Source: a virus
Taxonomy: Duplodnaviria; Heunggongvirae; Uroviricota; Caudoviricetes
DNA: 47,442 nt
IMG/VR virus record: IMGVR_UViG_2913112809_000004
Span: 1-47,442 of that record
Direction: 5' to 3' (one strand)
Positions 31,858 to 34,800 of the stretch are shown in pieces. Position 1 is the first letter of the stretch. Each line of letters starts with the position of its first letter. A program made the position numbers.

Positions 31858-34800
31858 ATCGGCATTATTTCCTCAGACAGGAATATATCGCAACCACTCC
31901 CCCTGAAGAACTGCGGCAAATAATACGTTTAAATAATAAAACTGCAATACACCATAACGTCAAGTTTTGTAAAGTTATTTTTAGATTTCCATTTTGTCGG
32001 CTTTGTATATAAATTTAAAAACAGTTATAAATATGCACAAAATATATTTTATACAACAATTTAATCGCGCATTTTTTAATCAAGCTTCAGAAATAAAAAA
32101 ACCCGCCTGTGGCGGGTTTTTAAGTTCACGTTTCTGGTTAACCTCGCGATACAGCTTTGCGAAGCGTAACTGAATTGAAGCAGCTTATTGCTCACTTTGC
32201 AATAGTTTTTTTTGTGCCGTGAACATTGGTTTATAAAGCATAAATTCAGCAATCATCAGCCATTGATCGATACGACGTCGACAGGTAATTAATGTCCAGT
32301 CAGGATGATTTTCATTTAACTGCTCTGCCATTTTCAGTTTGCTCATTCCCCGCCCTTCATATCGTTGTCGGAGGATGCTAATTAATCCCGGATACTCGAC
32401 CAGCACTTCGCTAATTACCCGATCAATACATAACGCCTCGGCATCAGTACAATGAGACAACCAGCTTTTCTGCTTACCGTCGAGCATTTCCCGCAAAAAT
32501 GCCTCCAGTTCCGTCTTATCAATCCCCGCTTTTTTCATCCTGCGCAGAACTTCATTGATGGCTGTTTTCGTCAATTTTTTGGATGCCAGCAACTGGTTAA
32601 ACATATTCCCCGTCTTACCGCCGCCAATATACGACCAGCGCCCCCACATACGCAGTTTTCCCTGAATCCAGACACTTTCCAGCGTGGTGAGACGAAGGTG
32701 TTCCCCGCTTTTTCCTGTATTTGTTGGGTAAATCATAAATAACCTTCCTTTCTCCAGATTTCTTGTGTGCGAAAAACACCTTCTGCATGCATCAGGCGTA
32801 ATTCTTCTTTGGTGTAATCGCTGGTTTTTACTCTCCCGTCGATTAAATCGTGGCATGAGCTACAGGCAATTGCAGCCTGCATATCGTGTGGCTTTGTCGC
32901 TGTTCCACACGTCCCCGCCAGTCTGTAATGCGCCAGCACGGAAGTTTCGGGATTGTGATTGCAGTAGCCAGGAATTCTGACCTGACACATCTGGCCCCGC
33001 GCCGCTTTACGTAAATCTGCCATCACGCAAACTCCAGCAGCTGTGCAGCCACATTTTCGACTTGTTCCGGAGAGGAAAATTTACGGAACAGAATCCAGTT
33101 CCACAGCACATTCAGTACAGATTTATAAACCTGCTGAAACTCGGTTTCGTCCATATTCGCAAACGCGATGGATTTCGCCCGACGCCCGCGGTTACCGTCC
33201 GGATAAAAATGCTCAGTGTAAAATCCGGCCTGAATGGTTACCCATTCACGGAAGGCGTCAAATGACTTGAGTAATGCCGTATCCTGGGTTCTGCGTGTCG
33301 CAACTGTATTCAGATATTGCTCTGCGGCTTCGCTCAGGGCTGGCGTATGTTCCCTGCCTACCGAGTCACACAGGTAATCAACGAAACCTGACACCAGTGT
33401 TCGTTCGCGAGGCGTGATCGCCCCACCGACCGGAGTCCAGTAATCGAATCCGAGTTGCAGGAGTTTGAAAAAAACGCTTGTGGAATGCGTAGTTACGAAC
33501 ACGCTTAAAGTCAGCGTGTATCCACTCGCCTATTTTTATTTGATGCAGAAAATCGCAACTCTCCGGCGTCGCCGGGAGAAGTAAACCAGAAGAAGTTTGT
33601 TTGACCAGTTGTATATGTGCCATCGGTTTTCTCCGGTGGCACGGTGTTACTCAGCAGGGGGTCAACCCTGTGCTGAATTGTAGATGAATTCACTCAGTCT
33701 CAAAAGCAAAAAATCCAGCCTTAAGTCCTATCTCTTTCAAAGCCTGTAATGATGTGACAAATTCATCTTCACGTAAAATAAAACCGTCCACCATAAGTCC
33801 ATCCACAAAATAAATTAACACAGCACCGCTCTTCCTTTGCTGGGATTGTAAACATTTAATGCGGCAGTGACTGACAATAGTTCCATTCTCAACGCGCACA
33901 GCATAGAGGCCATTTTCACTAAACAATTCATGCAATTCTTCGATTTTCATCTTCAGAATCCTTCCAGATAAATAGCTCTCCCCTTTTCAAGGTCCATCCA
34001 TCTTCTCCCTGCGCGCTACTCAAAACGGATGAATTCTAATTAATCTTTATTTCGAAGCAATCGCAAACGATAAAGCCAAAATAAAAAACAAATACAACAA
34101 ATACAACAAATACAACAAATACAACAAATACAACAATATCGAATGATTAACTAACCATTCGGACAACAAGGCAATATAATTTCAGTTAAAATTATTAATC
34201 CCTTATTCATGAAAAACAAAACCCGCCGAAGCGGGTTAAGTGCGGGTGCGTTGAGGATACCTGACAACTTAAAGAGTGGCGGGGATTGCTCCCCGCCGTG
34301 GCTCTTAACGTTTTTCAACTTCGTAGGCTAAATACGCCGAAAGCTCTGTGTTACCCTGTTTGATGTGCAGTTCGCATAGCGAACCGCGAACCATCCAGAC
34401 AAATACCAGAATGGTGATACAAACCACCACCAGACAAAACACATAGCTCCTTCGCATTACAGCCCCCCCCTGTTAGTTGATTTCTTACTGTTAAGAGGCT
34501 AATCTTTATGTGTCGCATACAGATATGGCCTCAGATTAATGTTAAGCGTCTTGCCGGACGCGTAATGTTAACTGGGGCTTTTCTCTATCTGCCTTTGGTG
34601 TTCATGCCCGAGGCAGATAGCCTCAAGCACCCGCAGTCATTCTACCCGTTTTAGATTTCTCAGCCAACTTTATGCTCACAACATATACAAATTTTCCGGT
34701 TAAAGCTCAACATGTTAGATAGTTTTTGCGTACGCACTATTTTTTTGTGTAAACTGCCTAAAAAGTTTAGCACCCTAAATTGTTAAGGGAAAATTAAGGA

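What the first reader, a model, noticed from the sequence alone, without database searches (positions are those of the whole stretch)
34091..34135. Perfect 9-bp tandem repeat (AATACAACA x5) in an intergenic region
Five exact head-to-tail copies lie about 140 bp upstream of the minus-strand gene starting at 33950 and just downstream of the hok-like terminator. Exact short tandem repeats can change copy number by slippage and tune a nearby promoter, or act as protein-binding sites. It is too short and unspaced to be CRISPR.
Basis: seen in the sequence. Interest (0 to 1): 0.4.

Follow-up and report, generated by a model that had tools for sequence, protein, structure and literature searches.

The report
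Hypervariable repeat upstream of prophage antirepressor
The 9-bp repeat is real and changes copy number very quickly between otherwise identical prophages; it lies just upstream of the predicted promoter of rem, the gene that switches this type of prophage on, but whether its length affects that switch is untested.

Summary
There is a perfect 9-bp array at 34087-34136 (5.6 copies), and shuffled sequence gives none. It belongs to a Rac/mEp460-like E. coli prophage with DicA/DicC immunity.

On the minus strand the order is: hok terminator, AT-rich segment, small dyad/hairpin, the array, a T-rich tract, a conserved sigma-70-type promoter, a near-invariant ~85-nt leader, then rem. The promoter is TTGCTT-16-TAGAAT, and TAGAAT is invariant in all 13 representatives aligned from the ~90 rem loci retrieved. 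Rem is the published antirepressor of DicA, and its inducing signal is unknown.

In 27 distinct versions of this module the array has 2 to 13 units. Three different units have each expanded, and some arrays have decayed. Prophages with 0-2 mismatches in 985 bp of flank differ by 2, 3 or 8 units. Neighbouring T-runs also vary by 1 bp. Most rem loci have no array.

The unit is not conserved, is out of phase with the DNA helix, and matches no DicA operator, LexA box or DnaA box. It is not coding and not structured.

Verdict: a slippage-driven VNTR in the far-upstream region (about -61 to -110) of the antirepressor promoter. It is probably near-neutral or a weak modulator. An adaptive "induction rheostat" role is possible but unproven.

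The parts
34087..34136 (-). 9-bp tandem array. It reads (TGTTGTATT)n on the rem-sense (minus) strand and AACAAATAC x5.6 on the plus strand. It lies at about -61 to -110 from the inferred rem transcription start.
   Evidence: TRF; exact matches versus shuffles; homologous polymorphic arrays in relatives.
34061..34086 (-). T-rich tract between the array and the -35 (TTTGTTTTTTATTTTGGCTTTATCGTTTGCGA), at the position of a UP element. Its homopolymer runs vary by 1 bp between prophages with identical flanks.
   Evidence: Sequence; window and L322 have 0/985 flank mismatches but differ by 1 bp here. The UP-element role is inferred from position and composition only.
34033..34060 (-). Predicted sigma-70 promoter of rem (P_rem): -35 TTGCTT at 34060-34055, 16-nt spacer, -10 TAGAAT at 34038-34033.
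   Evidence: TAGAAT is invariant, with TTGnnn upstream, in the 13 diverse rem loci aligned, even though their upstream DNA is unrelated. The scanner calls the homologous TTGATT-16-TAGAAT as the only promoter-like site in three relatives. It is not called in the window itself, where it scores 8/12. No transcription start has been mapped.
33951..34032 (-). Near-invariant rem leader (about 75-85 nt) that includes the ribosome-binding site.
   Evidence: Alignment A2. Its folding energy is no better than shuffled sequence, z = 0.02.
33690..33950 (-). rem, 86 aa, antirepressor of the DicA-type prophage repressor.
   Evidence: 85% identical over 80 aa to the most common rem allele recovered from IMG/VR (L264; I take it to be K-12/Qin-like but did not verify this). 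The related gene is annotated 'protein Rem' in E. coli genomes, including the K-12 derivative KLY. Precomputed Pfam hit PF27490 Rem on the identical protein. Function from PMC10448788.
34140..34161 (-). Dyad/hairpin CGAATGGTT-AGTT-AATCATTCG directly 5' of the array on the rem-sense strand.
   Evidence: Flagged as terminator-like. RNA fold centroid -8.7 kcal/mol, z = -2. Two-sided changes at 3 of 9 pairs across lineages, with 51/63 cells paired versus 16-39 for slid partners, but only -0.1 to -2.9 kcal/mol in most lineages.
34210..34237 (-). Intrinsic terminator of hok mRNA. It marks the distal boundary of the array-bearing module.
   Evidence: It is conserved in all loci and was used as the anchor.
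34305..34457 (-). hok toxin gene (50 aa), the upstream neighbour.
   Evidence: ORF; annotated hokD in relatives; PF01848; sok Rfam match at 34455-34632.
40395..40802 (+). DicA-like repressor (135 aa). It is the presumed target of Rem and shows that rem here is part of a complete immunity circuit.
   Evidence: HTH_3 and CI-repressor HTH hits. DicC-like ORF at 40312-40082 and palindromic operators at 40327-40346.

Best explanation
The array is a slippage-prone minisatellite (VNTR) that occupies the far-upstream region, about -61 to -110, of the promoter of rem. Rem is the antirepressor that inactivates the DicA-type repressor of this Rac/mEp460-like prophage.

Shown: replication slippage adds or removes whole 9-bp units much faster than the flanks pick up point substitutions. 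Arrays turn over, so that different unit variants have expanded in different lineages, and some arrays decay.

Inferred: the array acts, if at all, through its length and not through its sequence. Each unit moves the upstream DNA (dyad, AT-rich segment, hok terminator) 9 bp, about 0.86 helical turn, further from the promoter, and lengthens a T-rich tract next to the UP-element zone of a promoter whose -35 is weak (TTGCTT).

The most likely consequence is nothing, or a modest graded change in basal rem transcription. The array is not required for rem control, because most rem loci lack it.
For: The array is real and non-random.

The module order is hok terminator, AT-rich segment, dyad, array, T-tract, -35/-10, leader, rem.

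The promoter is supported by an invariant TAGAAT with TTGnnn 16 bp upstream (18 bp in two of the 13 lineages aligned), present despite unrelated upstream DNA, and by scanner calls at the homologous site in three relatives.

There are 27 distinct module versions. Unit TTGTTGTAT occurs in 3, 5, 6, 7 or 8 units. Unit TGTATTGTT occurs in 4, 5, 6, 7, 8, 10 or 13 units. Unit TGTGTTGTT occurs in about 2-3 and 4-5 units. Other arrays are degenerate (5-8 units) or decayed (2-3 units).

L243 and L325 have 0/985 flank mismatches but 5 versus 7 units. L001, L344 and L251 differ at no more than 2/985 positions but have 5, 8 and 13 units.

Rem function and the missing inducer come from PMC10448788. The window carries DicA and DicC.

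The array has no secondary structure. No conserved ORF runs through it.
Against: No transcription start is mapped, and the window's own promoter scores only 8/12 and was not called by the scanner.

No expression data exist for any copy number.

The array has persisted in perfect form across lineages whose flanks differ by about 15%, and three different units have re-expanded at one spot next to a master-switch promoter. That could reflect selection for variability, so 'near-neutral' may understate its role.

Five units is the commonest state in the window's lineage, even between prophages whose hok-side flanks differ (window versus L243). That could hint at a preferred length.
Confidence: 0.6

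Rival explanations
1. Adaptive contingency (rheostat) locus. Copy number, together with the 1-bp T-run changes, sets the basal activity of P_rem and so the level of antirepressor. This gives sub-lineages of lysogens heritably different but reversible frequencies of spontaneous or signal-triggered induction, which is bet-hedging at the prophage switch.
For: The array sits directly upstream of the promoter of the induction switch gene (PMC10448788). Hypermutability is demonstrated. There is a second slippage-prone element, the homopolymer T-runs, at -37 to -60. Array-bearing lineages have a weaker -35 (TTGCTT) than array-less ones (TTGATT), so they may depend more on upstream DNA. The array persists or has re-expanded with three different units. 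The same promoter-plus-array module also drives a different small gene in other prophages. Precedents recalled from my own knowledge: nadA TAAA and hmw 7-bp promoter repeats.
Against: There are no expression data. About 70 of the 80 rem loci retrieved from IMG/VR have no array, and in most of them the hok terminator sits about 30 bp from the -35. Some lineages have let the array decay. The distance from dyad to -35 is spread over all helical phases with no sign of preferred settings (computed). Effects of DNA beyond -60 on sigma-70 promoters are usually modest (my own knowledge).
Confidence: 0.2
2. An array of binding sites for a DNA-binding protein (iteron-like or operator-like; host or phage encoded) that activates or represses P_rem or titrates a regulator.
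For: Direct repeats upstream of a promoter are a classical layout for regulators. An adjacent dyad keeps its symmetry through two-sided changes. A one-mismatch IHF-like match abuts the array at 34137-34149.
Against: The unit sequence is not conserved between lineages; only the period and the T/G-rich composition are. A 9-bp period puts successive sites on different faces of the helix. The unit bears no resemblance to the DicA operators (TGTTAGC..GCTAACA). There is no LexA box and no DnaA-box match within one mismatch inside the array. IHF-like matches occur at chance frequency, 53 found versus 60 expected. The unit is barely enriched elsewhere in the prophage. The array is absent from most rem loci.
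Confidence: 0.07
3. An RNA-level element on read-through transcripts from hok or the early operon. The hairpin plus the U-rich (UGUUGUAUU)n tract would act as a second, back-up terminator that insulates P_rem, or as a U-rich protein-binding tract.
For: The scanner flags hairpin plus T-tract as terminator-like. The G.U pairs that occur are only tolerable on the rem-sense strand. Gifsy antirepressor promoters are likewise preceded by terminator-like palindromes (PMC3121763).
Against: The stem is AT-rich and weak: -7.4 kcal/mol in the window but -0.1 to -2.9 in most lineages. In the TGTATTGTT lineage, 8 non-U-rich bases separate the stem from the repeats. A strong hok terminator already lies 60 bp upstream. 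A terminator needs about 8 U, not 45-120 nt.
Confidence: 0.08
4. An in-frame coding repeat (9 bp = 3 codons) inside a small hydrophobic peptide, such as the 40-aa ORF at 34169-34047 that encodes (LLY)5.
For: An ORF spans the array in the window. An ATG-started ORF, MRLYC(LYC)n, spans it in the other lineage. Unit changes would keep the reading frame.
Against: The start codons and N-termini are unrelated between lineages. There is no Shine-Dalgarno sequence. 1-bp T-run indels give three different C-termini among near-identical prophages. All six frames are open simply because the unit contains no stop codon.
Confidence: 0.02

Closest known systems
Promoter-upstream simple-sequence-repeat 'rheostat' loci, e.g. 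the Neisseria meningitidis nadA TAAA tract and the Haemophilus influenzae hmw1A/hmw2A 7-bp repeats (recalled from my own knowledge, not checked here)
   Same: A perfect short tandem array upstream of the core promoter of one gene. Copy number changes by slippage in whole units. Length, not coding, is what could matter.
   Different: In those systems expression has been measured as a function of copy number. Here nothing is measured. Those genes encode surface adhesins in host-adapted pathogens with many such loci. Here the gene is a prophage antirepressor in E. coli, which has few known contingency loci. The unit is longer (9 bp), and the array lies beyond -60, not between or next to regulator sites that have been mapped.
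E. coli / Shigella VNTR loci used for MLVA typing (my own knowledge)
   Same: Intergenic or prophage-borne arrays of 6-18 bp units. Copy number differs between closely related isolates. Behaviour fits RecA-independent slippage.
   Different: This locus was not found in the searchable literature under its sequence. It is carried by a rare prophage module, in about 22 of 5,426 complete E. coli genomes, so it is not a general typing marker.
LexA-controlled antirepressor operons of Gifsy prophages (dinI-gfoA/gftA-irsA; Lemire et al. 2011, PMC3121763)
   Same: A small antirepressor gene followed by an irsA/DUF1367 gene, downstream of the replication genes. It has its own promoter, preceded by terminator-like palindromes. 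It controls a short, non-cleavable repressor.
   Different: The window has no LexA box and no dinI. It has a long conserved leader instead. The tandem array has no counterpart in the Gifsy description ('tandem' occurs 0 times).
rem of the Qin cryptic prophage of E. coli K-12 and phage mEp460_ev081 (Ragunathan et al. 2023, PMC10448788)
   Same: Same gene family (85% aa identity), same -10 and leader, same hok-rem order.
   Different: In the commonest array-less rem loci (L264, L252, L289), which include the allele I take to be Qin-like, the hok terminator lies about 140 bp from the rem ATG and there is no array. The window's lineage has an extra 120-215 bp module that contains the dyad and the array.
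Iterons / DnaA-box clusters
   Same: Short direct repeats; 9 bp is the length of a DnaA box.
   Different: No match to TTWTNCACA within one mismatch. The copies are contiguous, not spaced. The unit is not conserved. The location is not at a replication origin.

Membership tests
VNTR / minisatellite evolving by slippage | Head-to-tail copies of one short unit | tested here: met
   TRF: period 9, 5.6 copies, 100% identity.
VNTR / minisatellite evolving by slippage | Copy number polymorphic, in whole units, between genomes whose flanks are (nearly) identical | tested here: met
   L243 versus L325: 0/985 flank mismatches, +18 bp. L001, L344 and L251: no more than 2/985 mismatches; 5, 8 and 13 units.
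VNTR / minisatellite evolving by slippage | Length heterogeneity arising within a clone | not testable with these tools
   Needs reads or amplicons from single-colony cultures.
Promoter-associated contingency / rheostat repeat (nadA-, hmw-type) | Repeat lies within or just upstream of the promoter of the affected gene | tested here: met
   The array ends 26 bp upstream of the -35 of the conserved TTGCTT-16-TAGAAT. The promoter is predicted, not mapped.
Promoter-associated contingency / rheostat repeat (nadA-, hmw-type) | Expression of the gene changes with copy number | not testable with these tools
   Requires reporter fusions or RNA measurements.
Promoter-associated contingency / rheostat repeat (nadA-, hmw-type) | Repeat retained wherever the gene/promoter occurs (sign of selection) | tested here: not met
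   About 70 of the 80 rem loci from IMG/VR lack it. It has decayed in lineage E.
Operator / iteron array (sequence-specific protein-binding repeats) | Unit sequence conserved among relatives | tested here: not met
   Three different expanded units: TTGTTGTAT, TGTATTGTT, TGTGTTGTT.
Operator / iteron array (sequence-specific protein-binding repeats) | Spacing that places sites on one helical face (about 10-11 or 21-22 bp) | tested here: not met
   The period is 9 bp in every lineage.
Operator / iteron array (sequence-specific protein-binding repeats) | Resemblance to the prophage's own operators or to LexA / DnaA / IHF sites | tested here: not met
   DicA operators differ. No LexA box. No DnaA-box match in the array. 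The IHF-like match is at chance level.
Gifsy-type LexA-controlled antirepressor locus | LexA box at the promoter | tested here: not met
   No CTGT-N8-ACAG anywhere in the window, and no match within 3 mismatches of the 20-mer consensus.
Gifsy-type LexA-controlled antirepressor locus | Small antirepressor gene followed by irsA (DUF1367), preceded by a terminator-like palindrome | tested here: met
   rem at 33950-33690, then DUF1367 (split) at 33623-33023. hok terminator plus dyad upstream. Compared with PMC3121763.
CRISPR array | Repeats separated by unique spacers of similar length | tested here: not met
   The units are contiguous.
Coding (in-frame) tandem repeat | Conserved ORF with start, frame and termini shared by relatives | tested here: not met
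   Frames and N- and C-termini are not conserved. T-run indels shift the frame.
Intrinsic terminator (hairpin + U tract) | Stable G+C-rich stem immediately followed by a U-run | tested here: inconclusive
   Flagged in the window (-7.4 kcal/mol). In most lineages the stem is only -0.1 to -2.9 kcal/mol, and in lineage B it is separated from the U-rich repeats.

The most novel reading that the evidence does not exclude
The array, together with the adjacent variable T-runs, is a hypermutable rheostat on the promoter of the Rem antirepressor. Lysogens would then continually generate sub-lineages with different, heritable but reversible, thresholds or frequencies of prophage induction. This would be a contingency locus acting on the lysis-lysogeny switch itself, in a class of prophages whose induction signal is still unknown and which lack LexA control.
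Probability: 0.17. Interest if true: 0.7.

Novelty: new member of a known kind. Interest (0 to 1): 0.4.

Why it matters
Rem-type antirepressors control DicA-type repressors, which cannot be cleaved during the SOS response. What turns rem on is an open question (PMC10448788).

This work does three things. It places a demonstrably hypermutable element directly upstream of the rem promoter in one family of E. coli prophages. It defines that promoter and its strongly conserved, LexA-box-free leader by comparative analysis. And it provides natural alleles with 2 to 13 units and otherwise identical flanks, which are ready-made material for testing whether upstream repeat length sets the rate of spontaneous induction.

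If the array has no effect, it is simply a fast-evolving marker that can discriminate very closely related lysogens.

Tried and rejected
1. Scanning genome contigs and viral contigs with the bare two-unit 18-mer. The hits were almost all chance matches in AT-rich genomes, and none shared the flanks.

2. Literature search with 9-mers. It returned 2,125 irrelevant papers. The same search with 18-mers found none.

3. Coding small peptide through the array: rejected.

4. LexA control as in Gifsy prophages: no box found.

5. DnaA boxes: none in the array. IHF: matches at chance level.

6. DicA operators: unrelated to the unit.

7. Secondary structure of the array (none) and of the leader (no better than shuffles).

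8. Rfam: only sok and two tRNAs in the window, nothing at the array.

9. A plus-strand perfect TATAAT at 34175-34180 that could use the array as an upstream element. I rejected it by eye: there is no acceptable -35, and the hexamer is TATAAC in the other lineage (sequences).

10. Fur-box, PhoP-box and CpxR-box resemblances, considered by eye. The period is wrong (9 versus 6, 11 or 10 bp), or the match is not shared by the window's lineage. Not pursued further.

11. Helical phasing between the dyad and the -35. The distances (63-161 bp) fall on all phases of a 10.5-bp helix, so there is no conserved phase and no compensation between unit number and T-run length.

12. Pfam and PADLOC scans of the neighbouring plus-strand cargo genes: no meaningful hits.
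Full report
OBSERVATION

The window contains a perfect tandem array at 34087-34136: period 9, 5.6 copies, 100% identity. A two-unit probe matches four times, against 0.00 expected in 100 dinucleotide-preserving shuffles. The stated surroundings are also correct. A minus-strand ORF starts at 33950, 137 bp from the array. A hok gene (34457-34305) with its intrinsic terminator (stem 34237-34220) lies on the other side. An Rfam sok match is at 34455-34632.

CONTEXT

The window is a complete lambdoid prophage of the Rac/mEp460 kind.
- Its structural half is 95-96% identical to prophages in E. coli genomes.
- Its early region is closest to phages PhiR42_1, HannyBb and mEp460_ev081.
- It carries a DicA-like repressor (40395-40802, +), a DicC-like Cro analogue (40312-40082, -) and palindromic operators between them.
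- On the minus strand, downstream of the replication genes, the order is hok/sok, the array, an 86-aa gene, DUF1367 (irsA homologue), YbcO, and a DUF1133/Q-like antiterminator.

The 86-aa gene is rem.
- It is 85% identical to the most common rem allele recovered from IMG/VR, which I take to be the K-12/Qin type.
- Its relatives are annotated 'protein Rem' in E. coli genomes.
- The identical protein carries the precomputed Pfam family PF27490 Rem.
- Ragunathan et al. 2023 (PMC10448788) showed that Rem relieves DicA repression 165-fold. They state that the condition inducing Rem is unknown.
- The analogous Gifsy antirepressors sit in a dinI-antirepressor-irsA operon. That operon has a LexA box at its promoter and terminator-like palindromes upstream (PMC3121763).

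THE PROMOTER

I aligned the region upstream of rem from 13 representative loci, chosen from about 90 retrieved.
- The alignment shows an invariant TAGAAT, with a TTGnnn hexamer 16 bp upstream (18 bp in two lineages).
- A near-invariant leader of about 85 nt runs from there to the ATG.
- Everything upstream of the -35 is unrelated between lineages.
- In three relatives with different upstream DNA, the consensus scanner finds exactly one promoter-like site in 400 bp, and it is this one: TTGATT-16-TAGAAT.
- In the window the elements are TTGCTT (34060-34055) and TAGAAT (34038-34033). This scores 8/12, below the scanner's threshold, so it was not called.

I infer that rem has its own sigma-70 promoter, P_rem. 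The start site has not been mapped. With a start near 34026, the array spans about -61 to -110. A T-rich tract (34061-34086) fills the UP-element zone.

The window has no LexA box at all and no dinI, so this promoter is not of the Gifsy type.

THE ARRAY IN RELATIVES

Loci came from several sources:
- relatives of Rem in IMG/VR;
- contigs encoding the identical Rem;
- the module-specific promoter spacer motif in IMG/VR and metagenomes;
- complete E. coli genomes.

Together they give 27 distinct versions of the module: hok terminator, AT-rich segment, dyad, array, T-tract, P_rem.

| Lineage | Unit (rem-sense strand) | Units observed |
|---|---|---|
| A (includes the window) | TTGTTGTAT | 3 (with a TGTC variant), 5, 6, 7; 8 in a mixed array where a TGCT variant has spread internally |
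| B | TGTATTGTT | 4, 5, 6, 7, 8, 10, 13 |
| C | degenerate B-type | 5-8 |
| D | TGTGTTGTT (a third unit) | about 2-3 and 4-5 |
| E | decayed | 2-3 |

Additional points:
- About 70 of the 80 rem loci retrieved from IMG/VR have no array. In most of these the hok terminator lies only about 140 bp from the ATG, against 258-355 bp in array-bearing loci.
- The module is rare. About 22 of 5,426 complete E. coli genomes have it, and all of those carry lineages B-E.
- The window's lineage A occurs in draft assemblies and IMG/VR contigs.
- In some prophages the same promoter, array and first half of the leader precede a different 55-aa gene.

RATE OF CHANGE

I compared about 985 bp of flank per pair, excluding the variable middle.
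- L243 and L325: no mismatches, but 5 versus 7 units.
- L001, L344 and L251: 1-2 mismatches, but 5, 8 and 13 units.
- The window and L322: identical flanks, but a 1-bp difference in a T-run.

Copy number therefore changes far faster than point substitution, always in whole units, and the neighbouring homopolymers slip as well. This is the signature of replication slippage.

WHAT THE ARRAY IS NOT

- Not a set of sequence-specific binding sites. The unit is not conserved between lineages; only the 9-bp period and the T/G-rich composition are. A 9-bp period rotates successive units by about -51 degrees around the helix. The unit does not resemble the DicA operators. There is no DnaA-box match within one mismatch. 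The adjacent IHF-like match is at chance frequency. The unit is hardly enriched elsewhere in the prophage.
- Not coding. ORFs cross it only because the unit lacks stop codons in all six frames. Start codons, N-termini and C-termini differ between lineages, and differ even between near-identical prophages because of T-run indels.
- Not structured. The folding energy of the array is 0 kcal/mol.
- Not CRISPR, and not any Rfam family.

THE ADJACENT DYAD

The sequence at 34140-34161 can form a 9-bp hairpin on the rem-sense strand: -7.4 kcal/mol alone, and centroid -8.7 kcal/mol with z = -2 in context.
- Across lineages three of its pairs change on both sides, and 51 of 63 cells pair, against 16-39 for slid partners.
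- In most lineages the stem is worth only -0.1 to -2.9 kcal/mol.
- In lineage B it is not followed directly by U-rich sequence.

It may be a weak back-up terminator or a dyad-symmetric site. I could not decide between these. The distance from the dyad to the -35 (63-161 bp) falls on all helical phases, so no fixed geometry is conserved.

MECHANISM

Shown: the element is a hypermutable VNTR, and it lies between the hok terminator and a conserved promoter-like element in front of the antirepressor gene.

Inferred: it can act only through its length. Each unit pushes upstream DNA 9 bp further away and extends a T-rich tract next to the UP zone. The promoter's -35 is weaker (TTGCTT) than in array-less lineages (TTGATT).

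From general knowledge of sigma-70 promoters, DNA beyond -60 usually has modest effects. The array is also dispensable in most rem loci and has decayed in some. For these reasons my leading view (0.6) is a near-neutral or weakly modulating VNTR.

The adaptive alternative is a contingency locus that tunes antirepressor level and hence induction frequency. The location supports it, as do the second slippery element, the weaker -35, and the repeated re-expansion of new units at the same spot. It has no functional evidence, and I give it 0.2. Protein-binding array (0.07), RNA or terminator element (0.08) and coding repeat (0.02) follow.

COMPARISON WITH KNOWN SYSTEMS

It works like a VNTR and meets the criteria I could test for one. 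Its layout resembles promoter-upstream repeat rheostats (nadA TAAA, hmw 7-bp repeats; my own knowledge), but the defining feature, expression that depends on copy number, cannot be tested here. The criterion 'retained wherever the promoter occurs' is not met.

The locus shares antirepressor-irsA synteny and an upstream palindrome with the Gifsy LexA-controlled loci, but lacks the LexA box and dinI.

I found no description of this array in the searchable literature.

VERDICT

Novelty: a new member of a known kind (promoter-proximal VNTR) in a new and biologically interesting place. Interest: 0.4.

Noticed in passing
window 33951-34060 (minus strand), and the homologous regions of L242-L331: The rem promoter (invariant TAGAAT, with TTGnnn 16 bp upstream in most lineages) and an ~85-nt near-invariant leader are conserved in every rem locus aligned, although the DNA upstream of them is unrelated. 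There is no LexA box anywhere in the window, unlike the Gifsy antirepressor promoters. The leader is more conserved than the rem coding sequence but is not predicted to be structured (z = 0.02). It may be where the unknown induction signal acts.
   Followed up: partly
window 34140-34161: A dyad/hairpin directly beside the array keeps its pairing through two-sided changes at three positions across lineages (CGAATG/CATTCG versus CGATAA/TTATCG, with G.T intermediates). Its predicted stability is very low in most lineages.
   Followed up: partly
window 34061-34086; relatives: Homopolymer T-runs between the array and the -35 differ by 1 bp between prophages whose 985-bp flanks are identical (window versus L322; T7 to T9 in lineage B). 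This is a second slippage-prone element in the UP-element zone.
   Followed up: partly
window 33023-33623 (minus strand): The irsA/DUF1367 gene downstream of rem is split by a frameshift. ORF 33623-33378 matches profile positions 1-52, and ORF 33502-33023 matches positions 50-198. It is an intact 199-aa gene in most relatives (e.g. L322) and is split in the same way in L324.
   Followed up: partly
window 34802-36958 (plus strand): Three co-oriented genes (365, 142 and about 213-234 aa) run opposite to the early operon, between a truncated Q-like gene and hok. They have no Pfam hits and only one marginal PADLOC hit (PDC-S54, E = 0.0016). At the same slot, relatives carry other cargo: NA37 plus an unknown gene, SMC/AAA ATPase plus a DNA methylase, or HTH plus M78 peptidase. 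This looks like a variable moron or defence hotspot.
   Followed up: partly
L342, L345-L348 (E. coli STEC316, DCE7, STEC308, CFIAFB20180540; metagenome SKEK01002115): The same promoter-plus-array module and the first ~45 nt of the leader are joined to a different 55-aa gene (MNDKELIAALSVPGNYEVIVLEN...) in place of rem. It has no Pfam hit. It may be an alternative antirepressor swapped in behind a shared control region.
   Followed up: no
L001, L343, L344, L354-L357 (complete E. coli genomes): In lineage B and D prophages of complete E. coli genomes, the rem-like gene downstream of the array is annotated as a frameshifted pseudogene (289 nt).
   Followed up: no
window 36955-37489 and 32185-32856 (minus strand): There are two Q-related genes. 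Short ORFs at 37489-37157 and 37146-36955 have a weak Phage_antitermQ hit and look like a disrupted Q gene next to the cargo island. A full DUF1133/Q-like gene lies downstream of rem-irsA-ybcO.
   Followed up: no
window 31710-31863 (minus strand): tRNA-Gly(tcc) and tRNA-Thr(tgt) genes lie just downstream of the Q-like gene, as in many lambdoid and Stx-type prophages.
   Followed up: no
window 34175-34180 (plus strand): A perfect TATAAT lies on the strand opposite to rem, pointing toward the hok 3' end, with the A-rich array directly upstream. There is no acceptable -35, and the hexamer is TATAAC in the other lineage, so it is probably not a conserved promoter.
   Followed up: partly
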